The position numbers were made by a program, and so were the translations under genes. From Candidatus Omnitrophota bacterium (GTDB lineage: Bacteria > Omnitrophota > Gorgyraeia > Duberdicusellales > 4484-171), in contig JBAZGN010000001.1 of NCBI GenBank assembly GCA_041652815.1, positions 182,315 through 246,314 on the forward strand: DNA of 64,000 nt, read 5' to 3'. A model generated the notes under the pieces. That model ran no database searches. It was not told where the DNA came from and worked only from the letters and a program-made list of their open reading frames with translations. Of this stretch, positions 12,582-61,534 are shown piece after piece (the stretch's first letter is position 1; each line of letters starts with the position of its first letter).

Positions 12582-12665
12582 GCGAGAGTGGCGGAATTGG
12601 CAGACGCATTAGCTTGAGGGGCTAACGGTAGCAATACTGTAGGGGTTCAACTCCCCTCTCTCGCA
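12582..12665 (+). tRNA. tRNA-Leu (anticodon GAG), type II with long variable arm
   Basis: Folded by hand. Acceptor stem gcgagag/ctctcgc with discriminator A. Anticodon stem ttagc/gctaa with loop ttGAGgg (U33, G37). Variable-arm hairpin cggta-gcaa-tactg. T stem agggg/cccct with loop ttcaact. CCA is not encoded. Confidence 0.85.
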
Positions 12666-43728: not shown

Positions 43729-43740
43729 GTGGATAATTAA

Positions 43741-45033: not shown

Positions 45034-45034
45034 G

Positions 45035-46867: not shown

Positions 46868-46924
46868 ATTTTTTAATTATCTAAAATTATAGCAAGCAAT
46901 CTCAAGCTTTGGTTGTTAAAACCC

Positions 46925-47773
46925 TTAAAAGAAAGACTCTGGAACAGAGATTATATCATTTTCTTTTAATTCCACATCCCTTGATTTATCACCGCTTTTA
47001 AGAATATGCGCAATAGGCACATTAAATGTTTCTTTTTTGTCTTGGCCAGGTGCTCTTCTTATCACTTTAACTGCATTCTGATCTGCAATGTCAGTGAACC
47101 CCCCAGCTAAAGCTATGGCTTCAATGGCCGTCAAACCTTTACTATACTTGTAACTCCCAGGCTTTCGTACCTGGCCTAAGACTGCTATGTCACCATATCC
47201 TTTCACAATTATTCTATCCAAGGGTTGTAATAAAAAATCTCTACCATGTTTGTTAAAATCTACTATATATTCTTTCTCTTCATTGCCAACTTTACGTATA
47301 ATCTTTATGTTTGTCAAATTGGCATTTTGCTTTGCGCCATCGGCAAGCGCTAAGGCTTCCAAAAGAGATAAGTTGCCTATTAATTCATAGCTGCCTTCGC
47401 TGTTTATTGCTCCGATAATAAAAAATTTAGCATATTCTTTTATAAAAATATTTACTTGCGGATTAACAAAATAATCTTTCTTGAGAAGATTTTCTATTTT
47501 AGCAGTTGCCTCTTTTGTGGTTAAATTTCCAATAATAATCTCTCCTATAAATGGATAAATTATCTTTCCTTCCTCGGACACCTTAACCGTTTTAGTCAAA
47601 TTGGGCTCTCCGTATACTGAAATTTCGATGGTATCCCCAGGCTTTATACGATAAACATAATTACCATCTTCCGAGGCAACAGCCTGCTTATCAACTTCTT
47701 TATTTGCCTGAGGATAAGCCATAAAAATGATAATAGAAAAAGTTATTAATAGAAATATTTTTTTTATCATCAA
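46925..47773 (-). CDS. Polysaccharide export protein (Wza-like, Poly_export + SLBB domains)
   Basis: Signal peptide; YRIKPGDTIEISVYGEPNL is the Poly_export motif; tandem SLBB-like repeats. Confidence 0.7.
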   Translation of the reverse strand: MMIKKIFLLITFSIIIFMAYPQANKEVDKQAVASEDGNYVYRIKPGDTIEISVYGEPNLTKTVKVSEEGKIIYPFIGEIIIGNLTTKEATAKIENLLKKDYFVNPQVNIFIKEYAKFFIIGAINSEGSYELIGNLSLLEALALADGAKQNANLTNIKIIRKVGNEEKEYIVDFNKHGRDFLLQPLDRIIVKGYGDIAVLGQVRKPGSYKYSKGLTAIEAIALAGGFTDIADQNAVKVIRRAPGQDKKETFNVPIAHILKSGDKSRDVELKENDIISVPESFF

Positions 47774-49398
47774 AACTCCGAATTTACGCTTAAGCTAATT
47801 GTGTTACCTTTAAATTCCTGCAGTTTTGTTTTCGATGTTCTGTCTTCAAAAGTATATTTTAAACCAAATAGTAACCATTTTCTGAATCTATATTCTGGAT
47901 TAAATGATACTAAAAGATAATTATCGCGCGTTTGGTAGTCTGAACCTCTTTGATAATAGGAAACATCTCCATTTAATCTTATTTTTTTAAGAAAAGGCGG
48001 GAGATAACTGCACCCCAAAGAAATTCCTTGATATTTTGTTATATTCTCAGCAAGCAAGTTAATATCCCCCAACCCCTGTACTACGTTCAAACGATAATTC
48101 AAACGCGGGGAAGCCTTATATGTTAAATTTGCTGCGATAGTTTTCCCATTTAAGTCTTTGACGCTCTTCCTTTTGTTAGAACTATAACCTCCTTTAATTG
48201 TGCCTTCGAGCTTTTTAAAAATTTTTCCTTTTAAACCCACAATATATTTATCATAAGCAAAGTTTTGAGCTATATTTTTGTCATAATCTAACCACCCATG
48301 AGCGTATTCTACAAAAATCTTTGTTTTTGGTAGAATTTTTAAAGAGTTCCTTAAAGCAATTACATTACGGATATGGTTTGATGGCTTATATTCATCGCTC
48401 ACATAACTATACAGGCCTCTGTTATATTGTATATCAGTTTCAAGCTTGTTGAAATTAATTTTGAAGTCTTGTCCCATTTCATAAATCCAAGAATCAACAA
48501 ACCTCTGTACTTCTTGATTACCCACGTCGCTAGCAGTACCCCTCGTCCGCATTACAGATGCAGACGTAATAAAACCAAACTTACCCAGTCCATATTTAAC
48601 GAACCCTTTTCCGTATGGATTTGTGTGATCATTCTGGTCTTCAGTTGCATAGCGTAAAATCTGTAATCCTGCATTTAAATATAAATCAAATTTTTTTTGT
48701 GATGTTGACCGCTTGAATTCAAAGCCAGGATATAACTTTGTTACATAACTATTAACCGGGTCGGTTTTTGTCTGATACAAATTATTCGTAAATTCCCCTA
48801 TTCCGATTATATAAGGATGTATGTTTTTCAGCGTAGCCTTAAGGCGATTACTTTTTATGTCTCGTTTTTCTACCAACGTTTTATTTTTTGTTTCGTTTTT
48901 TAACCTATTTATTTTAGATAAAGAAATGTTTTCTCCCTGGGTCTTTTGCGGAATTTTTGAAAAAGACAACTTTGTTCCATAAGACGGTTTGCTTTCTTTA
49001 GCTGTTATCGCTTTAACTGAAAATATTTGATTGTTTATCGCTTCTTTTTCTTTAACTGTTTTTTTTGTAAGTTTTTGTATGTGGGGTAAGTCGTTTGAAT
49101 TTTCTTGTTTTTTCCCAGTATGTTTTATTCCTCCAAGACCTTGCTTTGAAGAAACTTTAGGTGTTGATAAAATTTTTTTTTGCTGCGTTATTTTTTTCAT
49201 TGAAGATGCTATTACTTTGGCTCTGCTAGTTTTTTCTTGTTTTTGTATACTTATTGTTGTATCTTCTTCCCGGGCCGATTTATCGTTCCGTTCTGTGTAA
49301 AAATCAAGAGTATAGGAAACAAGCTCTTTCCGTGACAATTCTGCATAAACCGAGTTGAACATTAGCAAATTTACGCAAAAAAATAAAACTATCTTCAC
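47770..49398 (-). CDS. Outer-membrane beta-barrel protein of the export module
   Basis: Signal peptide, a K/S/T-rich linker, alternating-polarity strands, and a C-terminal aromatic (SVNSEF). Confidence 0.5.
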   Translation of the reverse strand: MKIVLFFCVNLLMFNSVYAELSRKELVSYTLDFYTERNDKSAREEDTTISIQKQEKTSRAKVIASSMKKITQQKKILSTPKVSSKQGLGGIKHTGKKQENSNDLPHIQKLTKKTVKEKEAINNQIFSVKAITAKESKPSYGTKLSFSKIPQKTQGENISLSKINRLKNETKNKTLVEKRDIKSNRLKATLKNIHPYIIGIGEFTNNLYQTKTDPVNSYVTKLYPGFEFKRSTSQKKFDLYLNAGLQILRYATEDQNDHTNPYGKGFVKYGLGKFGFITSASVMRTRGTASDVGNQEVQRFVDSWIYEMGQDFKINFNKLETDIQYNRGLYSYVSDEYKPSNHIRNVIALRNSLKILPKTKIFVEYAHGWLDYDKNIAQNFAYDKYIVGLKGKIFKKLEGTIKGGYSSNKRKSVKDLNGKTIAANLTYKASPRLNYRLNVVQGLGDINLLAENITKYQGISLGCSYLPPFLKKIRLNGDVSYYQRGSDYQTRDNYLLVSFNPEYRFRKWLLFGLKYTFEDRTSKTKLQEFKGNTISLSVNSEF

Positions 49399-49414
49399 GT
49401 TTGCATTATATTGA

Positions 49415-49966
49415 TTAGTTATTTGTCCTTATTGTAATTAAACTTATGGCCATGGAGAAGAGTAGTAAGGTGTTAACGATATTCAACCATACTATTGCGC
49501 TAAAAAATATAGCAGGAATCAAGTTGAACTTTATCGATACTGCAATAATCCCGGCAATCACTCCTAAAAAAATAAAAATAGACGCAACAAACTTCATAAC
49601 ACCCTCCCTTGTTTTATCAAAGGTATTCGCTATCCTCTTATTTATAGTATTTTTGTAATCGTCTTTTAAATCCAAAAATTCAACAGCCACATCAAAACCG
49701 CCTATTTTCATGCTTTTTGAGCGCAAAACTCGCGCATTAACTTTAATGGCGTCAGGGGAAGAGGGAAAATTTATATTTAACTCTAATACACTTTTAGGTT
49801 TTATATATTCGGCTGAATGGAAAAGAACACCGCCGGCGCTGATATTACGCACAAAAGAAAGAACTCCTTCTTTATTCTTTTCATCGCCACATACCTTATA
49901 TTTAAGAAGGTGATAAGCCGTAAGCCTTAAAAACCGTCTTTTGTTTTTTGAAAATAAAATTGTCAT
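49415..49966 (-). CDS. Stand-alone PilZ-domain protein with C-terminal membrane anchor
   Basis: RRFLRL (RxxxR) and NISAGGVLF (D/NxSxGG), with two C-terminal TM helices. Confidence 0.6.
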   Translation of the reverse strand: MTILFSKNKRRFLRLTAYHLLKYKVCGDEKNKEGVLSFVRNISAGGVLFHSAEYIKPKSVLELNINFPSSPDAIKVNARVLRSKSMKIGGFDVAVEFLDLKDDYKNTINKRIANTFDKTREGVMKFVASIFIFLGVIAGIIAVSIKFNLIPAIFFSAIVWLNIVNTLLLFSMAISLITIRTNN

Positions 49967-51702
49967 TGCGCTTTATATCCTAATTTTAAGTCTATTTCTT
50001 TAAGATACCAAGAGGTTCGCCTAAATTTGGGTTGTAATGATTCTACTTTCATAAACTCTTTTCTTGCTTCTTCATAGTTTCCGAGGACAAAATAAATTAT
50101 TCCCAGGTTATAATAGGCTTCTGTGTAATTTGAGTTTAACGCTGTCGCTTTTTTTAAGCTATCCTTGGCCCCATTATAGTTACCTTGCGCCCATAACACA
50201 TATCCTAAATTATTATAAGCATAATTATATCTAGGATTAATATTCAGTGCTTTCCTGAAATAAATTCTCGCAAGATTATAATTTTTATTAAAAATATAAA
50301 GTGTCGCTAAATTATAATTAAAGATGTAGGAAGCAGGATAGATATTGATTGTTTTTCTATATTGCTCAATAGCCTCATCCACTTTATTAAGATTAAAATA
50401 TATGAAACCTAAATTGGCAGTTGCCTCGTAATCGCGGGGATTAATGTTTACGGCCTTTATACCTTCTGCTATTGCATCATCCGGTCTTTTTAAAAAATAA
50501 AAACATAAAGCTTTACCTATGTATGATGTGCTGTGTTTTGGATAAACACCAAGAGCTAAATCAAATTTTCCTAACGCATCTACATATTTTTGGTCCAAAG
50601 ACATTTTAAATCCTGTTTCAAGTAGCTGAAATCCTTCTTTACAATACTGCCAAGCCATATCAGGATTAATTTTATGTTCAATATAGGGGCTAAGATCTGA
50701 GAATGGTTCATTCTTTTTTATCTTAAGAAAAGCTTCTTGCGCTCTTGCGGGTTCTTTTAAATCATATAAATAAGCATATGCTGCGCGAAATTGTGAAAGC
50801 TGTGGTATTTCTAAAGATGGTTCAAGTTTAAAAAGCTCTTCAAACAAAGCTATCGCCTTATCTATCTGTCCAGATCTATACAAACAATCAGCTTCCTGGT
50901 AATAAGCAAACGATCGCCATTGCCCAGACAATTTATCTTTAATCTTGTTAAAAATTTCCGCTGATTTCTCAAACTCTTTTTTCGCCTTATAAAGAACGCC
51001 TAAAAAGAATTCTGCTTTTATCGTTTTATCGTTTTCTCGATTGAGCTCTATTGCCTTATTAAAATATTGTTCCGATAAATCCCAATCTTTTAGCAATAAA
51101 TATTGTTTAGCTATCTCTATATATTTATCCTGTAACTTTTCATCTTTGTATTTATGCAAATTTTTCTCAAGCTTCGCAATTCGAGATTTTAATAGGCCGA
51201 CATTGGCTGCCCTTTGACCCGGAAATAATTTTATAGCTATATCCTCGAGAAAAGAAAAAATAATGGGGCGGTTTTTTATTTCTTTATTAATAGCTTCTTT
51301 AATGAAATGTTTTATATCGCTAATTTGGGTGTCTGTTGAGATTTTTTCAGCAATCACAGCTGCAAAATCTATATTAGTAGCAGATGTTAGTTCGAACGTG
51401 TATCCTTTAGCTTGGATATTTTCTTTTAACCCCTGATCAATGATTAGCTGGGAAATTCCTACTTTTGCAGAAAAAGCAAGGTCAAAATCTCCCTTGACTA
51501 ATTCATCAAGGAAAGAATCGTCTAAAATAGACGTTAGTTTTTTTACGTCATTTAAAGTAGTTGCTTTATCTAAATCATTGAGGCATATTTTAAGATTAGC
51601 CAAAGATGCATCCAACAGATAATGGTTATAGCCTAGAAAAAAAATAAATGCAGCAAAAAAAGTAATAAATAATGGGACGAAATGACGAAATATTTTTTTC
51701 AT
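49963..51702 (-). CDS. Multi-TPR repeat protein with N-terminal TM helix
   Basis: Ten or more TPR units in the C-terminal half (AYYNLGIIYFVLGNYEEA...). Confidence 0.7.
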   Translation of the reverse strand: MKKIFRHFVPLFITFFAAFIFFLGYNHYLLDASLANLKICLNDLDKATTLNDVKKLTSILDDSFLDELVKGDFDLAFSAKVGISQLIIDQGLKENIQAKGYTFELTSATNIDFAAVIAEKISTDTQISDIKHFIKEAINKEIKNRPIIFSFLEDIAIKLFPGQRAANVGLLKSRIAKLEKNLHKYKDEKLQDKYIEIAKQYLLLKDWDLSEQYFNKAIELNRENDKTIKAEFFLGVLYKAKKEFEKSAEIFNKIKDKLSGQWRSFAYYQEADCLYRSGQIDKAIALFEELFKLEPSLEIPQLSQFRAAYAYLYDLKEPARAQEAFLKIKKNEPFSDLSPYIEHKINPDMAWQYCKEGFQLLETGFKMSLDQKYVDALGKFDLALGVYPKHSTSYIGKALCFYFLKRPDDAIAEGIKAVNINPRDYEATANLGFIYFNLNKVDEAIEQYRKTINIYPASYIFNYNLATLYIFNKNYNLARIYFRKALNINPRYNYAYNNLGYVLWAQGNYNGAKDSLKKATALNSNYTEAYYNLGIIYFVLGNYEEARKEFMKVESLQPKFRRTSWYLKEIDLKLGYKAQ

Positions 51703-51902
51703 TAATATTACTATATCATTGTTTTGTCTAGTGTCAATATAAAGAGTCTCGTTAAGCGAAATATTTATAATACTACTTACGGTAATTGGTTTTTTGTGCT
51801 TCTATGTTTAAAAATGAGTTTTATCTAAGGTAATCAAACAAAGATAAAATACAGTAACGATAACTATTCTTAAGTGCTTGTGTTCCAATATGTTATAATT
51901 CA

Positions 51903-51931
51903 TTGACAATAACGGCTTTTTATGGTATCTT
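51903..51931 (+). promoter_or_regulatory. Sigma70-like promoter TTGACA-N17-TATCTT for the small secreted protein gene
   Basis: TTGACA at 51903-51908 and TATCTT at 51926-51931. A strong SD (AAGGGAGGGAG) sits 5 nt before ATG 51950. Confidence 0.4.
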
Positions 51932-51949
51932 TAAAAGGGAGGGAGTAAC

Positions 51950-52174
51950 ATGAGTAATAAAATATTACTTGTAAGTTGTTTATTAGTGATGCCTTTCTGT
52001 GGATTTGCTCAGCCTGTTGCAGACACAAGCGCTAAAGATGATACAGCTTCTCCTACTGTCCAAACAGACGAAAGAGAAATATCGGAAGGCGAGGGAAAAG
52101 TTTTGAAAGATTTTGTTATTACTGCACCACAATTGCCATCCATCAAAACTACTGAAGAAAAAGAAAAGAAATAA
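51950..52174 (+). CDS. Small secreted acidic protein (74 aa, signal peptide), function unknown
   Basis: Signal peptide MSNKILLVSCLLVMPFCGFA/QP; strong RBS and candidate promoter. It is the only plus-strand gene in 30 kb. Confidence 0.45.
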   Translation: MSNKILLVSCLLVMPFCGFAQPVADTSAKDDTASPTVQTDEREISEGEGKVLKDFVITAPQLPSIKTTEEKEKK

Positions 52175-52181
52175 ATAATTA

Positions 52182-53498
52182 TCATATCGATTCAGCATCT
52201 TTTCTTTGATCTAAAACAAAACAACTACGTGCAAGTTTTTTTGCTTTCTTCTTAATTTCTGCAGCAATATTTGTAACTTCTGCATAGCTTGTTATAAGAC
52301 GATGTTCGTTGGTAACACCGGCCAAAGAGATAGTCATTATCGGAAATTCGTGTATTGCCCCATCGCGGCTTTGCGCTACGATAAATCCCCTTTCTAAATC
52401 TTCTGCATCATACAAAGAAAGGACTCGTTTGTCAAATTCTAAAGTGATATAATCTGCAATCAATTGGGCTTTATCGGGAGTTGTCAAGAGTATAAAATCG
52501 TCTCCGCCTTCATGACCGATAAAATCATTGTTATTACCTTTATTTTTTATAGCATCCTTAAACAATTGCCCTGTAAGTTTTATTGCATCATCTCCTTTTG
52601 CAATACCATACTTATCATTAAAAGCTTTAAAATTGTCTAAATCACAGTAAATTACCATGAATTTTTTATCTTCATTTATCCTTTTTTCGATTTCCTCACG
52701 TATGACTATATTACCGGGTAGTTTTGTTAATGGGTTTGCGTCTTCTGCCTTTGCTTTCATTTTCGCTAACTCTTCAGTCATAAAATTAAAAGTTCTGGCA
52801 AGCTGCTCCAGCTCATCATTCGTTGAAATATTAACCCTTAAATCCAAACGACCAGATGCAATAATTTTTGCGGCTGCATTAAAAACCTTTATCGGCACGA
52901 TGATTAATCGTGAAAAAAATATACCTAAAATAATATTTAAAAAAATAAATATTGCACCTATAGTAAATGCTGGTTGATAAACCTGCATATATGCACTGTG
53001 CATATCGCTTAGAGAAAAGGATAATTTAACTACATAATTATCGTTGTTGCTTCCTTTTAAGAAAACATATTTGAAAAAAAACTTAGCATTTTTATCGATA
53101 AATATTTCTTTCTCCGAAGTCACCCCTTTGTTTATTTTATCTACAACATAAATATCATCAAAATTGCCTTTCTGTCCTTGTAAAAAATTATTTGTTGAAA
53201 AAATAATTTTTGCTTCTTTATCTAATATGTAAGCCTGTGTTATTTCTTCCGATTCTTTTAGTTCTGTTAATTTTTTTTCTAAATAACTAAGCTGGTTTTC
53301 GGGAAGTAGATTAAAACCTATAATTTTTTCCCAAGTGTTTGTTAAAATTAACGAAACGATAGTTGCGCGGAAAGTATTAAACTTATTTATTATTTTTAAT
53401 TCATGGAAAAGTTGGACGCCAACGAATAATGTTATAGTTAATATAGTAAATGTTACAAGAAGGATAATGATTCTGTTTTTTAATGTCATGGTCCGCAT
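52182..53498 (-). CDS. Membrane sensor: periplasmic domain + HAMP + GGDEF-family domain with GGDDF signature
   Basis: Two TM helices flanking a ~150-aa extracytoplasmic domain, a HAMP linker (AAAKIIASGRLDLRV...LARTFNFMTEELAKMKA), then NPLTKLPGN, DLDNFKAFNDKYG and GGDDF. Confidence 0.75.
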   Translation of the reverse strand: MRTMTLKNRIIILLVTFTILTITLFVGVQLFHELKIINKFNTFRATIVSLILTNTWEKIIGFNLLPENQLSYLEKKLTELKESEEITQAYILDKEAKIIFSTNNFLQGQKGNFDDIYVVDKINKGVTSEKEIFIDKNAKFFFKYVFLKGSNNDNYVVKLSFSLSDMHSAYMQVYQPAFTIGAIFIFLNIILGIFFSRLIIVPIKVFNAAAKIIASGRLDLRVNISTNDELEQLARTFNFMTEELAKMKAKAEDANPLTKLPGNIVIREEIEKRINEDKKFMVIYCDLDNFKAFNDKYGIAKGDDAIKLTGQLFKDAIKNKGNNNDFIGHEGGDDFILLTTPDKAQLIADYITLEFDKRVLSLYDAEDLERGFIVAQSRDGAIHEFPIMTISLAGVTNEHRLITSYAEVTNIAAEIKKKAKKLARSCFVLDQRKDAESI

Positions 53499-53504: not shown

Positions 53505-54641
53505 CTATTTAACATCTATTTTAATCGGATCAAAACTATTTTTTATTATTTTGAAAATTATGCCCAGCATATCTTTTGAAATATCGGGGGATTTTAAAAA
53601 TTCCCACAAGAGAGTCGTGTGGTTTTCAAAATCTCCCATTTTTTCTATTATATCAGTTTTTTTCTTGATAAAATTAAATATCTTTTCAATATCATTATCT
53701 GCTAACTTGGCAAAAATATTCCGCGCCTTTAAAGCTATGCCTATTTCTTTTCCGAACTTCTTCGTCCAAAGCGAATCGTAGTCGTTAAATCTCTCATTCA
53801 TGATACATTCGCAAAGTATTTCTGCAGCACGCATACCCATATATATTCCGCCGTATGTCAGCGGTTTTACCTGCGAAGCACTGTCGCCGACTAAAAATAA
53901 CCGTTCCTTAGATAATGAGTTAAAATGCGTTAAAGGAACAAGGCCGGCAAATTTTTCCAATATCTTACCCTTTAAGTTGATCTCCTTAACAAAATCAAGA
54001 AGATCCTGATAGGGATTTTTTGAAAGTACCCCCACACGAATAATTTCGGCTGATTCGGGTATAATCCAGTAAAAATATGGCCTTTTCACGTAAACTTCGA
54101 CCATATCGCTATAGCGGGGCCTAAGCTGCATACGAAACTGCACGCCTTTTAAATATTCCATATGATTGGGGCTGATAAAATCTCTAAGCGTAGATTTTGC
54201 TCCTTCGGCGGCAACTACAATATCAGCCTCTAAACATCCTTTGTCGGTTTCAATAAGATAGCTTTTATCTTTTTTTTCCAATCCCAGGAACCGATTGTCA
54301 AACATAATATCCAAGTTCTCTCCTAACTTTTTGTCAAATCTTTCTCTGTCGATAACATAGGCAACTTCTTTTCTTCTAAGAGGAATTTTATTCTTACCTA
54401 TATAAATAACTGCACCGTTAATGGTGTTAAGAATGCAATCTTGGGAAATAGGAATTTTTGTTTCTTCAAAAACTTTTTTACCAACCAATCCTGCGCAATG
54501 GACGGGTTTACCTATTTCCTTATGTTCTTCGATAAGCAAAGGCCGAATACCTTCTCTTTGTAAAAGTTGGCCAAGATAACAACCAATAGGGCCTGCGCCG
54601 ATAATAACCGTATTTTTCTGTTTTCTCATAATATAGAACAA
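53505..54641 (-). CDS. Geranylgeranyl-reductase-family FAD-dependent oxidoreductase
   Basis: N-terminal FAD fold VIIGAGPIGCYLGQLLQREG...CAGLV. Length and internal blocks resemble GGR/ChlP-type reductases. Confidence 0.6.
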   Translation of the reverse strand: MFYIMRKQKNTVIIGAGPIGCYLGQLLQREGIRPLLIEEHKEIGKPVHCAGLVGKKVFEETKIPISQDCILNTINGAVIYIGKNKIPLRRKEVAYVIDRERFDKKLGENLDIMFDNRFLGLEKKDKSYLIETDKGCLEADIVVAAEGAKSTLRDFISPNHMEYLKGVQFRMQLRPRYSDMVEVYVKRPYFYWIIPESAEIIRVGVLSKNPYQDLLDFVKEINLKGKILEKFAGLVPLTHFNSLSKERLFLVGDSASQVKPLTYGGIYMGMRAAEILCECIMNERFNDYDSLWTKKFGKEIGIALKARNIFAKLADNDIEKIFNFIKKKTDIIEKMGDFENHTTLLWEFLKSPDISKDMLGIIFKIIKNSFDPIKIDVK

Positions 54642-54658
54642 TGATTACGGAAATTTTT

Positions 54659-55306
54659 CTACAGTTCGCTTTCTACTTTCTTTTTAAAATTTATTAATAA
54701 ATAAGTAAATTTATTTCCCCTACGTTCCCACATACCCCTGAAAGTGACCAGAAAAGATATAAAAATGATATAGAGGTCCAACAAAAAACTCTGATGCTTA
54801 ATATACCATATGTCGTATTTAAACTTCTCGGTACGGTTGATGTCGCGCGCAGCTAATATTTGTGCTACGCCGGTTAATCCCGGCATAACCGATAGGCGTT
54901 GTTCAGCACCTTTGAATTCCCAGATGCTTCTCGGTGTTTTATCGCCTGCATCAATCTCAACCATCCTTAAAGCTTTGGGCCCGACAAAACTCATTTCACC
55001 TTTTAGTATATTGACTAATTGAGGCAATTCGTCTAAAGCGGTAGCTCTTAATATTCTGCCAAAACGCGTTATCCTTGTATCATTTTCTTTTGCTTGAAGC
55101 GGGCCAACTTCTTTGTCGGCATTAGTTACCATGGAACGAAATTTTATGATTTTAAAAATCTTACCATTTTTACCTACCCTTTCCTGAGAGTAAAAAATAT
55201 GATTTTCATCTTCTATCCAAATCAAGATACCGAAAAGGAACCAAATAGGCAAGCTGATTAATAAACCTGATAGCGCCAGAAAAAAGTCAAATAATCTCTT
55301 TGTCAT
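54659..55306 (-). CDS. Initiating phosphoglycosyl transferase (PglC/WbaP C-terminal-domain type, Bac_transf)
   Basis: One N-terminal re-entrant helix; KIIKFRSM; DELPQLVNILKGEMSFVGP. Confidence 0.8.
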   Translation of the reverse strand: MTKRLFDFFLALSGLLISLPIWFLFGILIWIEDENHIFYSQERVGKNGKIFKIIKFRSMVTNADKEVGPLQAKENDTRITRFGRILRATALDELPQLVNILKGEMSFVGPKALRMVEIDAGDKTPRSIWEFKGAEQRLSVMPGLTGVAQILAARDINRTEKFKYDIWYIKHQSFLLDLYIIFISFLVTFRGMWERRGNKFTYLLINFKKKVESEL

Positions 55307-55485: not shown

Positions 55486-56643
55486 CTAAATAGTTTTTCC
55501 TAAATATCTACGAATATAATATGGCGCTATCCGTAAAATGTGTTTAATATTTTTTACTGGCTTATATAATAACGAAGTTCTGTAATTAGCGCCAAAATCG
55601 CAGAAACAATTTCTGCATTCTCTAAAATATATATCACTCTTAAAAATCTTTTTATATTCTTCTGCTGCTTTTTTCCAGATGTTGGCGATATCGCCTTTTT
55701 CTATATTTTCTATCGGCCCGATATGGGTACATGCTAATATATCTCCATTATAATTAATATGAAGATAATTATACGGCGTGGAGCACATAAATCCTTTCAT
55801 AATTTTTTTAAAAAACAATTTATCGGTTTTTGCATATTTAAAATAATCCGTTATCCATAATCGCAAGAAAGGCAATGTTGTAGACATTCTGGCTTCCTTT
55901 GCTGTTCGTAGAGCGTCTGAAATATATGTAGTAAGTTCATCCAAATATGGCGTATCTATATAAAAGGAATCCTTTTCCATTTTTTCTGTCTTATAATCAA
56001 CAAAGATTGGATCAATGCATACTGGCTGAAAATTTATATGGCGTATTTTTTTAAGAGACACTGCCCATTTTATTAAAGCCGATAAATCCTTATAATTCTG
56101 TTTACTAATTACTGTTGACAAGCAATAATTTGTCTTTATGGCTTCCGATTTTTTGGAAGCCATAAATAATTCTATATCATGGAAAAGCCCTGCTTTGCCA
56201 CGGAAATTATCCTGCCTATTCGCGTCAGGATAATCTACAGAAATAATAATACGCCTTATGTTAGCCCGATTCAAAATAATTATTTGTTCATTGGATAATG
56301 TATTTAATGTGCTGCCATTTGTAGTTATGGCGCTAATGACTAATGAATTCCTATAACATAAGTCCAAAAGATACCATAAATTATGTGCCATGAAAGGTTC
56401 ACCGCCGGTAATATAAACATCCTTCACCTTCATCGTAATCATCGCTTCTACGATTTTATCTAATTGAGAAATAGATAATTCTTTATGGGGGTGAGTTTCG
56501 TTTTTAATATTTGAGATTCCGATATCACAAAATTTACATTTGAGATTACAATTATTTGTCAAATACAATATAACTTCAATCGGCGAAAAGGGTCTATAGA
56601 AATGGTTGACAAATGATTTAATTATCTTATTTACCTGCAACAC
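55486..56643 (-). CDS. Radical SAM enzyme with C-terminal SPASM/twitch-like cysteine cluster
   Basis: CNLKCKFC (CxxxCxxC) near the N-terminus, and C-terminal CTHIG...CRNCFCDFG cysteines. Confidence 0.75.
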   Translation of the reverse strand: MLQVNKIIKSFVNHFYRPFSPIEVILYLTNNCNLKCKFCDIGISNIKNETHPHKELSISQLDKIVEAMITMKVKDVYITGGEPFMAHNLWYLLDLCYRNSLVISAITTNGSTLNTLSNEQIIILNRANIRRIIISVDYPDANRQDNFRGKAGLFHDIELFMASKKSEAIKTNYCLSTVISKQNYKDLSALIKWAVSLKKIRHINFQPVCIDPIFVDYKTEKMEKDSFYIDTPYLDELTTYISDALRTAKEARMSTTLPFLRLWITDYFKYAKTDKLFFKKIMKGFMCSTPYNYLHINYNGDILACTHIGPIENIEKGDIANIWKKAAEEYKKIFKSDIYFRECRNCFCDFGANYRTSLLYKPVKNIKHILRIAPYYIRRYLGKTI

Positions 56644-56729
56644 TTTCTTCTTTATTTTTAATCAAATGTTTTAAGGAAACAACTAAAGTTTTTGGGTTCC
56701 CCAGCGCAAATTTAGCTAAATTGATTATG

Positions 56730-58121
56730 TTATAAATTTACAATATTTGTTCTTTGCGTTATTTTCCAATTTTGTATGGCTAAATTAAATGTTGCCATAA
56801 TAAAACTAATATGGAACCAAAACATATTTACTAAAAATTGGTCGTCTACTGTATTAATAAAAATAGAGACTACAAAGGCAGAAAACATACCGACTACGTG
56901 AGCATTAAGGCTCAGTGCAGTATTTCCAGAGAACCGTATTGCTCTAAAACCTAACGAAAAAATTCTTACTAACAGTAATATTATGGAAATTAAGCCTAAA
57001 ATTCCTATATCAGCTAATGAGCGTATAAAAATATTAGTTACCCAAAATTCTCCTTCAGCGGTACTTGGGCTACTCCCTATCAAGGGGTGTTCCCTCCACG
57101 CTCGAAAACCATAATCCCAAGTAGTCATACGCGCCTGCATAGTTTCTGTTTGAAAATTTATATCTTTAGAATAACGCTGAGTTAACATTTCCTTTATACC
57201 ACTATATTGATCTATGTCTTTGGTTATCAATGCATTGAATAGTGCAACAAAAATAAAACCGCCGATTACTAATCCCATGGATCTCCGCACAAAAACCACA
57301 GTTTTATTCTGAATAGATAAAATAAACCAGCTGAAACATAACGAAATAACTATACCCAGAAAAGCTGACCTTTTGAAAGATAATAACATTGCCACAATAA
57401 ATATAAGAAGAAATAAATATTTCTTTTTTACTGAAAGAAAGGTGGAACGAATATACAAATGATTAAGTATAATAATCGTAAAAAACATCATCTGTAAACC
57501 GAAATAGTCACCCGCTTCATGTTGCATACCGACTATCCGCCCACCCAAATCTGTACTGATTCCACCTATATTAATATTGAGCATAATGAATAAAATATAA
57601 GCAATCACCCCATATATTGCCGAAATTATCCCTAACCAAATATAATATTTTAAGATACGTTCATAAATTTCCCTGCTATTTAATAGGCCCATCACGGCGA
57701 AAATAGGGCAAAAAATCACAACAGAAATAAGAGTTGTCTGCAAACTACGGGAAACATTGGTTGAATTAAATATAGTAGAAATTAAACTAATGATGATAAA
57801 AAGTGATAACGGTAAAAATAAACGATTACTAAAAATTATGTGCTTATATTTTATGCTAAATAACCATTTAAAAAATAAAAGCAAGCCCATAATTTGGCTT
57901 GGTCTAATGCGAAAATTTGAAAATTCCCAAACAAAAGTATCCAAGAATAGAGAAAATATAAAAAGATATAAAAAAAATTCCGCCGGTAGGCTAATAAATA
58001 AACTTATGCTCAGTAAACTAACGATTACCCATAAAACTGCCGAAGTCTCCTTATCGTTGATAAAATAGATAATTAAAGACCCAATAACTAAAAAAACTAA
58101 AATGTATATTAAAATTTTCAT
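56730..58121 (-). CDS. Polytopic membrane protein, probable polysaccharide polymerase (Wzy/EpsG-like)
   Basis: Twelve or more TM helices with one large loop. No Wzy_C HN motif was found, so the assignment rests on topology and context. Confidence 0.4.
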   Translation of the reverse strand: MKILIYILVFLVIGSLIIYFINDKETSAVLWVIVSLLSISLFISLPAEFFLYLFIFSLFLDTFVWEFSNFRIRPSQIMGLLLFFKWLFSIKYKHIIFSNRLFLPLSLFIIISLISTIFNSTNVSRSLQTTLISVVIFCPIFAVMGLLNSREIYERILKYYIWLGIISAIYGVIAYILFIMLNINIGGISTDLGGRIVGMQHEAGDYFGLQMMFFTIIILNHLYIRSTFLSVKKKYLFLLIFIVAMLLSFKRSAFLGIVISLCFSWFILSIQNKTVVFVRRSMGLVIGGFIFVALFNALITKDIDQYSGIKEMLTQRYSKDINFQTETMQARMTTWDYGFRAWREHPLIGSSPSTAEGEFWVTNIFIRSLADIGILGLISIILLLVRIFSLGFRAIRFSGNTALSLNAHVVGMFSAFVVSIFINTVDDQFLVNMFWFHISFIMATFNLAIQNWKITQRTNIVNL

Positions 58122-58197
58122 TTTCTTATTTTGAAATGAATCTCCACGGGCTAAAGTCCGGGGATAATCGGTCTGAAATTACATTTAATAAAGAATC

Positions 58198-59019
58198 TCA
58201 AACCCATAACTGAATCAAAACAGGCCTTCTGGAATACTGTGTAATTCCTCTAAGTTGATACCTATATTCTGGAACAATCTGCCTTATGAAACTTATCATC
58301 TCTTTATATTCATTGTCTCGATGATATGCAGCAATTACCATTTTAGGTTTATATTTTGAAATGATACCCTTAGCACCAATTAACATTTTCATTTCCCAGC
58401 CCTCTAAATCAGCTTTTATGTAAGTTATTCTACCTTTATCTTTCAATAAATTATCGAGAGTAGTTACTTTCACGTCCCCTTTTATTGATTCGACAACACT
58501 ATTATTAATTCTGTTTCCGGTTGTTTCTGCAAAGGCATCTTTATCTCCTATCGCAGTATTAAATAATTCTATTTTCCTCGGAATAAAGGTCTTAAAAGTT
58601 TTTTCTAAAGCACGGAGAAAAAATTTGTTAGACTCAATAATAAAAATATTTTTACACCTATTGACTATTGAAAGAGAAAACAATCCTTCGGCGGAACCAG
58701 CATCAACCACAATATCGTCTTTACTAATCTGGGTAGGTCCATATTCGTAATTATGCCAGTCACTTATATCAAAAGTTTCAGCACAGACTTGATATAAATC
58801 ATTTAAATTATATTCGCAAGGCAAATATAATTTATCTTGTATCGACTTAAAAGATATTTCTATAAAATCTTCTAAATAAGTAATATTCTTTATAAAATTG
58901 CGACCTGTGGTTTTAACCTGTGGTTTTTTAAGAAAATTAAATAACTCTCTTATTGTGATATTATAGCGGTCTTCAAACAGCCAAGAATACAATATCTTAA
59001 TCCTTCTATTAAGAATCAT
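58198..59019 (-). CDS. FkbM-family SAM-dependent methyltransferase
   Basis: VVDAGSAEGLFSL (SAM motif I) and IKADLEGWE, the FkbM hallmark. Confidence 0.7.
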   Translation of the reverse strand: MILNRRIKILYSWLFEDRYNITIRELFNFLKKPQVKTTGRNFIKNITYLEDFIEISFKSIQDKLYLPCEYNLNDLYQVCAETFDISDWHNYEYGPTQISKDDIVVDAGSAEGLFSLSIVNRCKNIFIIESNKFFLRALEKTFKTFIPRKIELFNTAIGDKDAFAETTGNRINNSVVESIKGDVKVTTLDNLLKDKGRITYIKADLEGWEMKMLIGAKGIISKYKPKMVIAAYHRDNEYKEMISFIRQIVPEYRYQLRGITQYSRRPVLIQLWV

Positions 59020-59081
59020 TTTTGGCCTTTCCCTCTTTCAACGGATAGATTCATAATGCCCCCATCAACAAAGAGAATATT

Positions 59082-60293
59082 CTATGCTCTTTCTATCTTC
59101 GTTAACAAAAAATCTATAGCATTTGTTACTTCTTCGATGCTAATTATATCCATGCAAGCGCTTATACCATTTTTTGTATGTTTGCAATGAGACAAAGAGC
59201 AAGGGCGTTTACAAAAATAATCTTTTTTTACAATATAGACATTTTTTTGACAAGGGCCTGTAATATCGGGATCGGCAGGCCCGAAGATTGCAACGGTAGG
59301 CACAGAAGAAATACAAGCAAGATGCATTATGCTTGTATCTGGACAAACAAGTAAACTGGCTTTTCCTAGCAATATAGAAAGCTCGCTAATATTTAACCTA
59401 CCGCAAAGATTTATAACTTTATTGTTTTGCATTAGTTTAACAATTTTCTCTGTTAAGGGGGCTTCTTCTTTGCTCCCAGTCAATATAATATACCATGCAT
59501 ATTTGTTTTTTATAAAATCGGCCACCTTGGCATATCGGTTTAGTGACCATAATCTCTTATTTTGACTTGCGCCAGGGTGAATGATAGCGAAAAAATCGTT
59601 CTTTCTTAGGCCATAAGATTCGAAAACCTCTTCAGCTTTCTTAATGTCTTCACGACAATAATATATTTGAATTTTCTTATCAATTTTCTCAATACCGATT
59701 TGTTTGAGTAAATTAATTTTTCTTTGTATAATATGCAAAGATGCATCAAAAAACACCGGTTTGCTTAATAAATATGCTCCTCCTGTTCTATCGTAACTTA
59801 AAGTATATTTTACCTTTGGTAAAAAAAGAAAGAATATAATATTACGGATGTCCCCTCTCAAATCAATTCCCAGATCAAAATTTTTTGATTTTAATAGCTT
59901 AGATATCTCTTGGTAATGTTTCAAATATCGAAAACAATTAATTGCTTGCGAGAAATTTATCTGTTTAGAATATACCCAAGGACAACTCTCAACTATAATT
60001 TCGTCAATATAAGGATTGTTCTTTAAAATTTCACTGCCAATCGAGCTTACCAAAACCGACATACGAGCGGAAGGAAATTTATATTTTAATGCAGCGAAGA
60101 TTGGTATTGATATAATTACATCGCCTAACGGTTCTTCTTCTATAACAAGAATCTTTTGTGGATTGATTTTGGTTAACTCATTTTTTTTTATATCCCACAA
60201 ACCTAAAAATCTTCCAGAATAAAATATAATTTTACCGATGCAATCAAGGACTAATGCTATTTTTTTATTAACTGGGTTATCTATTTCAATCAT
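59082..60293 (-). CDS. Glycosyltransferase family 9 (heptosyltransferase-like) with a Cys-rich C-terminal tail
   Basis: ILVIEEEPLGDVIISIPIF is the GT9 N-terminus; C-terminal CKRPCSLSHCKHTKNGISAC. Confidence 0.65.
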   Translation of the reverse strand: MIEIDNPVNKKIALVLDCIGKIIFYSGRFLGLWDIKKNELTKINPQKILVIEEEPLGDVIISIPIFAALKYKFPSARMSVLVSSIGSEILKNNPYIDEIIVESCPWVYSKQINFSQAINCFRYLKHYQEISKLLKSKNFDLGIDLRGDIRNIIFFLFLPKVKYTLSYDRTGGAYLLSKPVFFDASLHIIQRKINLLKQIGIEKIDKKIQIYYCREDIKKAEEVFESYGLRKNDFFAIIHPGASQNKRLWSLNRYAKVADFIKNKYAWYIILTGSKEEAPLTEKIVKLMQNNKVINLCGRLNISELSILLGKASLLVCPDTSIMHLACISSVPTVAIFGPADPDITGPCQKNVYIVKKDYFCKRPCSLSHCKHTKNGISACMDIISIEEVTNAIDFLLTKIERA

Positions 60294-60385
60294 ATTAATA
60301 AATATCCAACAAAAAATTATTCTAATTTTACATACTCCAAAAATTTTTTGATGGGCATGTATCTATTTAATATATTGATCACTGT

Positions 60386-61534
60386 TTACTCTGGATTTAA
60401 GTAAATTCTTTTCTTCTTTTCCTTTTGGATCTCTTTATATACTTTAATTGTTTCTTTAGTAATCTTATCCCAATTATGCAAGTTGCGCACTGCTCTCGCA
60501 GCATTAAGCCCCACTTTTTTTACTATATCCTGCCGTTCTACGAGATATTTTAGCCGCTGGCTTAAATCATTTACATCATCAACTTTGAACGTAAAACCAA
60601 TAGTATAATCTTCTCCTATTTTACAATTCTGTAATATTTCAACATTAGCTGGGATATTGCTAGCTATAACACATCGACCAAACCACATAGCTTCTAATAA
60701 CGCTATACTCTGACCCTCTACGCGCGATGGATGAACATATAGAGCAGCATTAGCGTATAGAGTGGCTAATTCTTGACCAAAAACATATCCTGCAAAAACG
60801 GCTCTGTCTTTCCCAATCTCTTTAAGCTGTTGGATATAACTAAGGTGCTGTTTTGAATCCCCCACAACAGCTACTTTCAGTTTCTCCGGCAAACATTTTA
60901 CTGCTTTTAGAAGTATCTCTATCGCGCGATCTGGTATAATTCTACCTACAGTTAATATATAAAAACCGGCTTGTAAACCGTATCGTTCACATATATCTTG
61001 CCCACCTGGGTCAGGTAAACCCACGCCATTTGGGATAATGTAGGGTTGACGACCTGTAACGCGTTTAACTTCTAGGGCGAGGGGCGTAGATACAGCAATA
61101 AATCCGTCTGCTAAAGCAGCAGAGACTTTTAAACATAATCGGAGATAAATTCTCCCAAGGCTTCCCCATTGTGTTTCTTCCCAAGATGGAGCGTGAAGTG
61201 TACAAATCACTATAGGTTTAATCAAGGGGGACATTATTGCAAGCCATTGTATCCCCAAATTGTGTAAATGTATTATATCAAAATTGTCAAATTGAGCCAT
61301 CACAAATGAAATAAGAGAATGACTTATTGTTTCTAGATATCTAAAGGGGAACCTTGGAAGGCGAATTAATTTTACTCTTCCTAATCTTTCTTTTGATAAT
61401 GTATAATCATTTCGACAGAAGACCGTTACTTCATGCCCCTGTTCTGCTAATCTCCTGCTTAGATTCTCTACATGATGCTCAATGCCACCGTATTTTGCTG
61501 GTATACCTTTTAATCCCACAAAGGCTATTTTCAT
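60386..61534 (-). CDS. Glycosyltransferase family 4 (GT-B)
   Basis: EGQSIALLEAMWFGRCVIASN is the EX7E motif region. Confidence 0.8.
   Translation of the reverse strand: MKIAFVGLKGIPAKYGGIEHHVENLSRRLAEQGHEVTVFCRNDYTLSKERLGRVKLIRLPRFPFRYLETISHSLISFVMAQFDNFDIIHLHNLGIQWLAIMSPLIKPIVICTLHAPSWEETQWGSLGRIYLRLCLKVSAALADGFIAVSTPLALEVKRVTGRQPYIIPNGVGLPDPGGQDICERYGLQAGFYILTVGRIIPDRAIEILLKAVKCLPEKLKVAVVGDSKQHLSYIQQLKEIGKDRAVFAGYVFGQELATLYANAALYVHPSRVEGQSIALLEAMWFGRCVIASNIPANVEILQNCKIGEDYTIGFTFKVDDVNDLSQRLKYLVERQDIVKKVGLNAARAVRNLHNWDKITKETIKVYKEIQKEKKKRIYLNPE

What the first reader, a model, noticed from the sequence alone, without database searches (positions are those of the whole stretch)
53505..55306. 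Geranylgeranyl-reductase-family flavoprotein translationally adjacent to the priming phosphoglycosyl transferase
GGR-type enzymes saturate isoprenoid double bonds. Placed next to the PglC-like enzyme that loads the first sugar onto undecaprenyl-phosphate, it may reduce the polyprenol carrier (making a dolichol-like alpha-saturated lipid), a trait normal in archaea and eukaryotes but rarely documented in bacteria. Alternatively it modifies a lipid anchor of the polymer.
Basis: inference. Interest (0 to 1): 0.5.

Follow-up and report, generated by a model that had tools for sequence, protein, structure and literature searches.

The report
Isoprenoid reductase wired to glycan priming
An Omnitrophota bacterium carries a distinct geranylgeranyl-reductase-type flavoprotein next to the enzyme that starts polysaccharide assembly on a lipid carrier. 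Relatives in two other bacterial phyla sit beside different priming enzymes, which suggests, without biochemical proof, that some bacteria saturate their polyprenyl carrier lipid.

Summary
A 374-aa flavoprotein gene (53505-54629, minus strand) lies 29 nt downstream of a 215-aa PglC-type phosphoglycosyl transferase (PGT, 54659-55306) and 6 nt upstream of a HAMP-GGDDF gene.

The flavoprotein belongs to the geranylgeranyl-reductase (GGR) superfamily, not to the monooxygenases or halogenases:
- It scores 156 bits on TIGR02032 (cutoff 158.8).
- Its best sequence and fold match among solved structures is Thermoplasma GGR 3OZ2.
- It keeps the essential Cys, the RxxFD and LxGD motifs and most of the catalytic-cavity strand.

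It is not an orthologue of the archaeal lipid reductases or of ChlP. It defines a separate clade found in Omnitrophota, Atribacterota, Margulisiibacteriota, Aerophobetes and Methanofastidiosia.

In 40 other Omnitrophota loci the gene stays inside the same exopolysaccharide locus despite several rearrangements. In Atribacterota and Margulisiibacteriota, clade members also sit in glycan-precursor and priming clusters. They lie beside PGTs of two further architectures: MraY/WecA-type and WbaP-type.

The best reading (confidence about 0.5) is a reductase of the polyprenyl-phosphate carrier. Which isoprene unit is saturated is unknown. No biochemistry exists for any member.

The parts
53505..54629 (-). 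GGR-superfamily flavoprotein, 374 aa from the ATG at 54629 (the longest ORF extends to a TTG at 54641). It is the founding window member of a distinct clade.
   Evidence: TIGR02032 156.3 bits, E 1.4e-45. 3OZ2 is the best PDB hit by sequence (E 5e-19; profile E 2e-33) and by fold (E 1.7e-26). AF2 model pLDDT 88.
54582..54599 (-). GxGxxG dinucleotide-binding motif (GAGPIG, residues 11-16)
   Evidence: Invariant in 37 orthologues and across the whole clade.
54495..54500 (-). His44-Cys45 (PVHCAG). Cys45 aligns with the catalytic Cys47 of archaeal GGRs.
   Evidence: HMMER alignment to 3OZ2. Cys is invariant in 80/80 clade members. Its essential role in S. acidocaldarius GGR comes from PMC10821996.
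54333..54347 (-). RxxFD motif (RERFD, residues 95-99), an FAD contact
   Evidence: R95 and D99 are invariant and F98 nearly so. The motif's role comes from PMC10821996.
54054..54080 (-). Catalytic-cavity strand PYFYWIIPE (residues 184-192). It corresponds to the GGR motif PxxYxWxFP, with Tyr replaced by Phe and Phe by Ile.
   Evidence: Aligned to 'PAGYIWVFPK' of 3OZ2. F186, W188 and E192 are invariant or nearly so across the clade.
53883..53894 (-). LxGD motif (LVGD, residues 246-249), followed by the clade-specific QxKP
   Evidence: G248/D249 and K255/P256 are conserved clade-wide. Thermoplasma GGR has LxDP in place of QxKP.
53619..53636 (-). Clade-specific C-terminal motif GDFENH (residues 332-337), invariant His337
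   Evidence: Conserved in Omnitrophota, Aerophobetes, Atribacterota and the archaeal members. It has no counterpart in the aligned part of 3OZ2.
54659..55306 (-). Small monotopic (PglC-type) polyprenyl-phosphate phosphoglycosyl transferase, with the catalytic Asp-Glu in LDELPQ
   Evidence: PF02397 203 bits; TIGR03025 E 2e-66. The motif was read directly from the sequence.
52182..53498 (-). HAMP plus GGDEF-like protein with an invariant GGDDF motif. It is the most frequent immediate neighbour of the GGR in Omnitrophota.
   Evidence: Pfam HAMP and GGDEF. Immediate downstream neighbour in 22 of 38 loci that have a downstream flank. GHEGGDDF in 28/28 orthologues.
42808..51702 (-). Conserved export/regulation module of the locus: TPR (49963-51702), PilZ (49415-49966), BBP2_2 beta-barrel porin (47770-49398), short OPX/Poly_export (46925-47773), Wzc-like GNVR/AAA_31 protein (45035-46867), Wzy_C polymerase/ligase-like protein (43741-45033), TPR-like protein (42808-43728)
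   Evidence: Pfam. The same gene set in the same order occurs in most Omnitrophota loci.
55486..63980 (-). Variable glycan-building part of the locus: radical SAM/SPASM, Wzy_C, FkbM methyltransferase, GT9, GT4, B12-radical SAM, GT4. The locus continues beyond the window end.
   Evidence: Pfam/NCBIfam. Gene content differs between Omnitrophota loci.

Best explanation
The gene encodes an FAD-dependent isoprenoid double-bond reductase of a previously undelimited GGR subfamily. Its substrate is probably the polyprenyl phosphate (or diphosphate) carrier lipid, or that lipid's short-chain primer, on which the adjacent PGT starts the exopolysaccharide repeat unit.

Proposed steps:
1. The enzyme's FAD is reduced. 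The donor is unknown and no ferredoxin or ETF gene lies nearby.
2. A hydride passes from the flavin to one or more C=C bonds of the prenyl chain, which sits in the hydrophobic cavity lined by the F186-x-W188 strand next to Cys45.
3. The partly saturated carrier is used by the PGT and the Wzy/Wzc/OPX-porin machinery of the same locus.

Shown: family membership, conserved catalytic residues, and a gene neighbourhood that is conserved and independently recurrent.
Inferred: the substrate, the position saturated (family precedent favours omega/internal units), the electron donor and the physiological benefit.
For: 1. GGR catalytic apparatus.
- TIGR02032 E 1.4e-45.
- The only full-length PDB sequence match is Thermoplasma GGR 3OZ2 (E 5e-19; profile E 2e-33). 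Monooxygenases match only in fragments.
- Foldseek ranks 3OZ2 and Sulfolobus GGR at the top (TM 0.76-0.80).
- Cys45, RxxFD, LxGD and the Trp/Pro of the cavity strand are invariant.

2. Omnitrophota context. In 40 non-redundant loci (41-72% identity) the gene is always among polyprenyl-P-dependent glycan genes, in at least five arrangements:
- after the PGT;
- after a PglF-like dehydratase;
- after TPR;
- after OPX;
- between Wzy/TPR and GT4/AsnB.

3. Independent phyla.
- In Atribacterota, an MraY/WecA-superfamily PGT lies immediately upstream in L061 and L083. A PGT of either class lies within 7 kb in 8 of 20 loci. One locus has a PglC/D/E/F-like cassette upstream.
- In Margulisiibacteriota/Saganbacteria, a prediction made before the look-up, a WbaP-type PGT lies 62 nt upstream (L086) or one gene away (L085, L087), with IspF one to three genes downstream.
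- The polyprenyl phosphate acceptor is what these three PGT architectures have in common.

4. The gene sits at the edge of the conserved export module while the glycosyltransferase set varies. This fits a substrate that does not depend on sugar composition.

5. Precedent: Haloferax GGR HVO_1799 saturates dolichyl phosphate (PMC5088576, PMC10821996).
Against: - No biochemical or lipid data exist for any clade member, and all are from uncultured organisms.
- Clade members in Methanofastidiosia (unknown 126-aa gene, GGR, then a genuine phosphoglycerate mutase) and in Aerophobetes (HDIG protein, then GGR) are not in glycan contexts.
- In one Atribacterota subclade only a sugar nucleotidyltransferase (rmlA_long type where tested) is adjacent, and no PGT lies within 7 kb (L088, L092).
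- The cavity motif deviates from the canon (Tyr to Phe, Phe to Ile), and the TIGR02032 score is 2.5 bits under the cutoff.
- No polyprenyl synthase or phosphatase genes recur in the neighbourhood.
- The carrier pool is normally shared with peptidoglycan synthesis, so placing its reductase in an EPS locus needs explaining.
Confidence: 0.5

Rival explanations
1. The enzyme reduces a different isoprenoid: a quinone tail (MenJ-like), another membrane isoprenoid, or a prenyl-derived lipid anchor that stays attached to the finished polymer.
For: GGR-family enzymes include quinone prenyl reductases and lipid reductases (PMC10821996). Some Omnitrophota encode UbiA-type or menaquinone pathway genes (PMC10066038). 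The archaeal and Aerophobetes clade members lie outside glycan clusters.
Against: No quinone or prenyltransferase gene occurs among the recurrent neighbours or anywhere in the 64-kb window. The linkage to glycan priming and assembly genes recurs in three phyla. Quinone pathways are patchy in Omnitrophota, whereas the gene turned up in many of its species-level genomes.
Confidence: 0.15
2. The flavoprotein acts on a non-isoprenoid substrate of the glycan pathway, such as a nucleotide sugar or a polymer substituent, having kept the GGR fold but changed chemistry.
For: In Atribacterota the constant neighbours are sugar-activation genes (rmlA_long-type nucleotidyltransferase, PMM/PGM, ManC) rather than a PGT. 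The cavity motif is altered. Clade-specific invariant polar residues (H36, H44, K255, R198, H337) could bind a nucleotide or a phosphate.
Against: The catalytic Cys and the hydrophobic Phe-x-Trp strand typical of prenyl reductases are invariant. To my knowledge no GGR-fold enzyme acts on sugars. The gene persists while the sugar-modifying and GT gene content of the Omnitrophota locus changes completely. Polar invariant residues are equally expected for a phosphate head group.
Confidence: 0.13
3. The protein is a redox-sensing or regulatory flavoprotein that works with the adjacent HAMP-GGDDF protein to control c-di-GMP-dependent (PilZ) polysaccharide export.
For: The HAMP-GGDDF gene is the most frequent immediate neighbour: 22 of 38 loci, often overlapping, sometimes convergent. 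The locus carries a PilZ gene.
Against: Several Omnitrophota arrangements lack the GGDDF gene beside the GGR (L025, L026, L035, L040, L089, L090). Atribacterota, Margulisiibacteriota, Aerophobetes and the archaea have no such partner. The full catalytic motif set is retained.
Confidence: 0.07
4. The adjacency has no functional meaning. A housekeeping reductase merely sits in a locus that has been inherited vertically.
For: Omnitrophota loci share ancestry, so counts within the phylum are not independent. The NJ tree shows the phylum's sequences as one clade.
Against: The linkage survives at least five different gene orders within the phylum. It recurs in two other phyla with different gene sets and non-homologous PGTs. 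My rough estimate (inference) is that a given gene lies within two genes of a PGT by chance in under 1% of cases per lineage.
Confidence: 0.08

Closest known systems
Haloferax volcanii HVO_1799 (GGR that saturates dolichyl phosphate and archaeol lipids; Naparstek et al. 2012, as summarised in PMC5088576 and PMC10821996)
   Same: It belongs to the GGR superfamily and acts on the glycan carrier lipid. It is the only documented case of the function proposed here.
   Different: It is archaeal and also serves membrane lipids. It is not reported to be linked to a PGT gene. It saturates omega/internal units, and alpha saturation is independent of it. I could not measure its sequence relationship to the window clade because no sequence was available to me.
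Thermoplasma acidophilum digeranylgeranylglycerophospholipid reductase Ta0516 (PDB 3OZ2) and Sulfolobus acidocaldarius GGR (3ATQ/4OPT)
   Same: Same fold (Foldseek E 1.7e-26, TM 0.76-0.80). It shares GxGxxG, the catalytic Cys, RxxFD, LxGD and the Trp/Pro of the cavity strand.
   Different: Only 15-22% identity. NCBIfam equivalog scores are 74 and 60 bits against cutoffs of 780 and 580. The window clade has H36, G47, QxKP and a C-terminal GDFENH motif that 3OZ2 lacks, and it is about 25-80 residues shorter.
ChlP/BchP geranylgeranyl (bacterio)chlorophyll/diphosphate reductases
   Same: A bacterial branch of the same superfamily. It reduces prenyl double bonds.
   Different: TIGR02023 scores 69 bits against a cutoff of 343, and there is no photosynthesis context.
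MenJ (Mycobacterium Rv0561c) and archaeal menaquinone prenyl reductases
   Same: Bacterial or archaeal GGR-family enzymes that saturate one or more units of a long polyprenyl chain (own knowledge; PMC10821996).
   Different: Their substrate is a quinone tail and they have no glycan context. I did not compare sequences directly.
SRD5A3/DFG10 polyprenol reductase of eukaryotes
   Same: It makes the saturated carrier (dolichol) used by the priming transferase.
   Different: It is an unrelated membrane steroid-5-alpha-reductase fold that acts at the alpha unit. The window protein has no Pfam match to that family.

Membership tests
Geranylgeranyl reductase superfamily (TIGR02032 GG-red-SF) | HMM score at or above the curated cutoff (158.8 bits) | tested here: inconclusive
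   156.3 bits, E 1.4e-45, 2.5 bits short. Ten other clade members score 134-168 bits and three of them pass.
Geranylgeranyl reductase superfamily (TIGR02032 GG-red-SF) | GxGxxG FAD-binding Rossmann motif | tested here: met
   GAGPIG at residues 11-16, invariant.
Geranylgeranyl reductase superfamily (TIGR02032 GG-red-SF) | Conserved catalytic cysteine near the flavin (Cys47 of archaeal GGRs) | tested here: met
   Cys45 aligns with the 3OZ2 cysteine and is invariant in 80 clade sequences.
Geranylgeranyl reductase superfamily (TIGR02032 GG-red-SF) | FAD-contact motifs RxxFD and LxGD | tested here: met
   RERFD (95-99) and LVGD (246-249).
Geranylgeranyl reductase superfamily (TIGR02032 GG-red-SF) | Catalytic-cavity motif PxxYxWxFP | tested here: inconclusive
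   The strand reads RPYFYWIIP. Trp and the final Pro are kept, Tyr becomes Phe and Phe becomes Ile. It fits the looser PxxxWxxP form.
Geranylgeranyl reductase superfamily (TIGR02032 GG-red-SF) | GGR three-domain fold | tested here: met
   AF2 model pLDDT 88, pTM 0.88. Six of the top eight Foldseek PDB hits are GGR structures. 3OZ2 is about a million-fold better in E-value than the next fold class.
Geranylgeranyl reductase superfamily (TIGR02032 GG-red-SF) | Reduction of isoprenoid C=C bonds | not testable with these tools
   Needs an enzyme assay or lipidomics.
Archaeal digeranylgeranylglycerophospholipid reductase (NF041160, NF041080 equivalogs) | Equivalog HMM score above the cutoff | tested here: not met
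   73.6 bits against 780 and 59.6 bits against 580. The archaeal clade members also fail, with 48-58 bits.
ChlP/BchP (TIGR02023, TIGR02028) | HMM score above the cutoff | tested here: not met
   69 bits against 343.3 and 33.6 bits against 505.3.
Group A flavin monooxygenases and flavin halogenases (UbiH/PHBH/TetX/PltA types) | Full-length HMM or sequence match above family cutoffs | tested here: not met
   Ubi-OHases scores 48 bits against 224.65. TetX-type matches are fragments only (E 1e-7 to 1e-5). PltA scores E 9e-7 with the clade profile. Fold hits to these classes have lower TM scores, 0.56-0.70.
Eukaryote-type polyprenol reductase (SRD5A3/DFG10) | Steroid 5-alpha-reductase membrane domain | tested here: not met
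   No such Pfam match. The protein is a soluble Rossmann-fold flavoprotein.
Monotopic phosphoglycosyl transferase (PglC-like), for the neighbouring gene | Bac_transf domain with the Asp-Glu catalytic dyad and a short single-domain form | tested here: met
   PF02397 203 bits against a cutoff of 27. The protein is 215 aa and LDELPQ is present.

The most novel reading that the evidence does not exclude
This clade is the missing prokaryotic enzyme that saturates the alpha (phosphate-proximal) isoprene unit. If so, Omnitrophota, Atribacterota and Margulisiibacteriota would build glycans on a true dolichol-type carrier. The trait would be shared with, and perhaps exchanged with, Methanofastidiosia archaea, and the co-located PGTs would be tuned to that carrier.
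Probability: 0.12. Interest if true: 0.85.

Novelty: new variant of a known kind. Interest (0 to 1): 0.6.

Why it matters
Reviews state that bacterial carrier polyprenols are fully unsaturated and that saturation marks archaea and eukaryotes (PMC5088576, PMC6770870). A dedicated reductase clade tied to glycan priming in three bacterial phyla would break that rule. It would also add a lipid-carrier tailoring step to bacterial polysaccharide pathways. One possible purpose is to set aside a carrier pool for exopolysaccharide, separate from peptidoglycan synthesis. Finally, it would give archaeal biology candidates for the GGR paralogues whose substrates are unknown. The hypothesis can be tested directly with one recombinant protein and mass spectrometry.

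Tried and rejected
- An apparent GGR-RmlA fusion in locus L084 would have argued for a nucleotide-sugar role. It is an artefact of a masked run of N that joins two ORFs.
- The archaeal neighbour 'ApgM' was considered as a possible polyprenyl-diphosphate phosphatase. It scores as a genuine cofactor-independent phosphoglycerate mutase (550 bits against a cutoff of 426), so that context says nothing.
- The Atribacterota PF00953 proteins were checked for being ordinary MraY. They score 41-48 bits against a cutoff of 192 and lie outside a cell-division cluster, so they are WecA/AglH-like PGTs.
- The gene-poor 1-6 kb region with higher G+C was suspected to be rRNA. Rfam finds none, and it is the start of a giant TpsA-like ORF.
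- Promoter and terminator scans around the genes gave no more sites than shuffled sequence and are not used.
- Six literature searches for GGR-family genes in bacterial polysaccharide loci, for reduced undecaprenyl phosphate, or for GGR in Omnitrophota or Atribacterota found no relevant paper. The library is incomplete, so this is weak evidence of novelty.
- The AlphaFold-database fold library was unavailable.
- No cultured organism appeared among the 120 best hits listed by each of the three homologue searches.
- I could not test whether complete Omnitrophota genomes lack other GGR paralogues or quinone pathways, because whole genomes cannot be fetched.
Full report
**Observation.** Both genes are real and lie on the minus strand. 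54659-55306 encodes a 215-aa protein that matches Bac_transf over its whole length (PF02397, 203 bits) and the EPS priming-transferase model TIGR03025 (E 2e-66). It is a small PglC-type monotopic phosphoglycosyl transferase (PGT) with the LDELPQ Asp-Glu dyad. The next ORF is 53505-54641. An alignment with 36 orthologues places its start at the ATG at 54629, giving 374 aa. The gap from the PGT stop is 29 nt. The following gene, a HAMP plus GGDEF-like protein at 52182-53498, starts 6 nt after the flavoprotein's stop. The three genes therefore form a tight block inside a long same-strand polysaccharide locus. That locus has a variable part and a conserved part:
- Variable: GT4, B12-radical SAM, GT4, GT9, FkbM, Wzy_C and radical SAM/SPASM genes.
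- Conserved: TPR, PilZ, BBP2_2 porin, short OPX, Wzc-like and Wzy_C genes.

**Family of the flavoprotein.** NCBIfam places it in the geranylgeranyl reductase (GGR) superfamily. TIGR02032 scores E 1.4e-45 and 156.3 bits, against a cutoff of 158.8. The next models are the archaeal lipid reductases (74 and 60 bits against cutoffs of 780 and 580) and BchP/ChlP (69 against 343). Hydroxylase models score lower and match only in pieces.

Among solved structures, the only full-length sequence match is Thermoplasma GGR 3OZ2 (E 5e-19; E 2e-33 with a profile of the orthologues). TetX-type monooxygenases match only the Rossmann segment and short fragments. An AlphaFold2 model built on the orthologue alignment is confident (pLDDT 88, pTM 0.88). 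Its best Foldseek hits are 3OZ2 (E 1.7e-26) and the Sulfolobus GGR structures (TM 0.78-0.80), ahead of halogenases and p-hydroxybenzoate hydroxylases.

The family's published motifs (PMC10821996) are present:
- GxGxxG;
- the catalytic cysteine (Cys45, aligned to the 3OZ2 cysteine);
- RxxFD;
- LxGD;
- the cavity strand in modified form: PYFYWIIP against PxxYxWxFP.

**A distinct clade.** The organism is a Candidatus Omnitrophota bacterium, and more than 100 orthologues at 45-76% identity come from that phylum. A scan of species-representative genomes and two further protein searches found relatives in four more groups:
- Aerophobetes (42-46% identity);
- Atribacterota (32-43%);
- Margulisiibacteriota/Saganbacteria (about 40% to the archaeal query);
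- Methanofastidiosia and related archaea (34-41%).

All share a signature that Thermoplasma GGR lacks: H36, G47, F186-x-W188-x-x-P-E192, R198, Q253-x-K255-P256, Y284 and a C-terminal [GA]-D-F-[ED]-x-H337 motif. In a neighbour-joining tree Omnitrophota, Aerophobetes and Atribacterota each form one group, while the archaeal sequences fall into three. Clade members score 134-168 bits on TIGR02032 but only 40-70 bits on the lipid-reductase and ChlP models. The archaeal members are therefore paralogues, not the canonical membrane-lipid GGR.

**Context within Omnitrophota.** I called ORFs in 40 non-redundant Omnitrophota loci and labelled them with the window's own proteins. The reductase always sits among genes of the same polysaccharide system.
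- Within 8 kb: TPR in 28 loci, the GGDEF-like gene in 27, the porin in 21, a PGT in 20, PilZ in 19, GT4 in 18 and OPX in 16.
- Immediately upstream: a PGT in 9 loci, TPR in 8 and OPX in 2. The 16 unlabelled same-strand neighbours include PglF-like 4,6-dehydratases and epimerases.
- Immediately downstream: the HAMP-GGDDF gene in 22 loci (5 of them convergent) and GT4 in 4.

Other recurrent neighbours are ordinary glycan genes: DegT aminotransferase, asparagine synthase-type amidotransferase, carbamoyltransferase and GT2. None is an isoprenoid synthesis gene. The linkage thus survives at least five gene orders. The gene lies at the border between the conserved export and regulation block and the variable glycosyltransferase block.

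**Independent phyla.**
- *Atribacterota.* In L061 and L083 the gene immediately upstream is a PF00953 protein. This is the polytopic MraY/WecA superfamily, which is not homologous to Bac_transf. It is not a true MraY (41-48 bits against a cutoff of 192), and ManC and phosphomannomutase flank it. Across 20 Atribacterota loci a PGT of either class lies within 7 kb in 8. One widespread locus has a PglC/PglD/PglE/PglF-like cassette upstream. A sugar-activation gene (rmlA_long-type nucleotidyltransferase, PMM/PGM or ManC) is adjacent in nearly all.
- *Margulisiibacteriota.* Having formed the hypothesis, I then looked up three members of this phylum as a test. Each shows the order GT4, Wzy_C-TPR, a 454-463-aa WbaP-type PGT (TIGR03025, 446 bits), then the reductase. 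The reductase is directly downstream in L086 (62-nt gap) and one divergent gene away in L085 and L087. Next come a DUF218 and/or epimerase gene and then IspF of the MEP isoprenoid pathway.
- *No glycan context.* Methanofastidiosia loci (an unknown 126-aa gene, the reductase, then a genuine phosphoglycerate mutase) and Aerophobetes loci (an HDIG protein, then the reductase) show no glycan genes next to the reductase.

**Most likely mechanism.** The only chemistry known for this superfamily is flavin-dependent saturation of prenyl double bonds. The only isoprenoid in a Wzy-type polysaccharide pathway is the polyprenyl phosphate carrier. What three structurally different PGT classes have in common is that acceptor lipid. 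I therefore infer that the enzyme saturates one or more isoprene units of the carrier, or of its FPP/GGPP primer, which is used by the neighbouring PGT. The electron donor is unknown. The invariant His, Lys and Arg residues specific to the clade may bind the phosphate head group, but that is speculation. Confidence is about 0.5.

Which unit is saturated cannot be told. The documented carrier-lipid case, HVO_1799, concerns omega/internal units. In that archaeon alpha saturation does not depend on the GGR, and eukaryotes use an unrelated enzyme for the alpha unit (PMC5088576, PMC10821996).

**Rivals.**
- *Another isoprenoid* (quinone tail, membrane isoprenoid or lipid anchor; 0.15). Quinone genes are patchy in the phylum (PMC10066038) and none lies nearby.
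- *A non-isoprenoid glycan-pathway substrate* (0.13). The constant sugar-activation neighbours in Atribacterota favour it. The invariant prenyl-reductase residues, and the gene's persistence while sugar genes change, count against it.
- *A redox or regulatory partner of the GGDDF protein* (0.07). That partner is missing in several Omnitrophota arrangements and in all other phyla.
- *Meaningless inherited synteny* (0.08). Recurrence with different partners contradicts it.

**Novelty.** The enzyme family is known, and one archaeal member acts on dolichyl phosphate. What appears new is a delimited clade with its own signature, tied to glycan priming in three bacterial phyla. Reviews describe bacterial carriers as fully unsaturated (PMC5088576, PMC6770870). 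Six full-text searches found no description of such a linkage, although the library is incomplete. I rate it a new variant of a known kind, with interest 0.6: a well-supported and readily testable comparative-genomic hypothesis with no biochemistry yet.

**Limits.**
- All clade members come from uncultured organisms.
- Counts within Omnitrophota are not phylogenetically independent.
- ORF labels in fetched loci rest on phmmer with window proteins plus spot checks with Pfam and NCBIfam.
- The tree is neighbour-joining with a single outgroup.
- I could not inspect whole genomes for paralogues or quinone pathways.

Noticed in passing
window 1-5833 (-) and 6133-7842 (-): An open reading frame of more than 1,940 aa runs off the window start. 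Its N-terminus carries a filamentous-haemagglutinin/TpsA 'NPNGI' secretion domain (TIGR01901, E 1e-19). The upstream 569-aa Omp85/BamA-like gene is probably its TpsB transporter. Giant ORFs are a known Omnitrophota trait (PMC10066038).
   Followed up: partly
window 52182-53498 (-): The HAMP-'GGDEF' protein next to the reductase has GHEGGDDF in all 28 Omnitrophota orthologues examined, so the signature is GGDDF rather than GG[DE]EF. Pfam matches only the first 100 of 161 model positions. It may be a receptor or a cyclase with altered chemistry rather than a standard diguanylate cyclase.
   Followed up: partly
window 51703-52181: The 479-nt gap between the GGDDF and TPR genes holds a degraded remnant, with stop codons, of a roughly 150-aa gene of unknown function. 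That gene is intact at this position in 11 other Omnitrophota loci.
   Followed up: partly
window 18509-18669 (-); 12582-12665 (+): A 6S RNA match barely above the Rfam gathering score (47.4 against 46.4 bits) and a tRNA-Leu(GAG). A LAGLIDADG-like ORF (11755-12525) lies just before the tRNA.
   Followed up: no
window 8024-11663 (+): A second c-di-GMP signalling set: a FIST-domain sensor, a histidine kinase and a REC-GGDEF response regulator.
   Followed up: no
window 55486-56643 (-) and 61531-62991 (-): Two radical SAM enzymes, one SPASM type and one B12-binding type, lie inside the glycosyltransferase region. Homologues recur in other Omnitrophota EPS loci (for example L010, L020, L025, L028, L030, L034). 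This hints at unusual radical chemistry on the polymer or its precursors.
   Followed up: no
window 46925-49398 (-): A short OPX protein (282 aa, Poly_export plus SLBB, with no outer-membrane helix region) overlaps a BBP2_2 beta-barrel porin gene. To my knowledge this is the arrangement described for OPX proteins that need a separate porin. The pair is conserved across the Omnitrophota loci.
   Followed up: no
window 54659-55306 (-): The PGT reads GPKA where PglC-type enzymes usually have a GPRP motif (own reading against remembered consensus, not tested). This could relate to an altered carrier lipid.
   Followed up: no
L085 8137-9257, L086 9186-9665, L087 8143-10291: In Margulisiibacteriota/Saganbacteria the reductase is followed within one to three genes by IspF of the MEP isoprenoid pathway. 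In two of the three loci a DUF218 protein weakly similar to the envelope factor ElyC comes first.
   Followed up: partly
L058-L073 (Methanofastidiosia loci), e.g. L062 9542-9922: A conserved 117-129-aa protein with no Pfam or NCBIfam match lies immediately upstream of the archaeal clade members in 12 loci.
   Followed up: no
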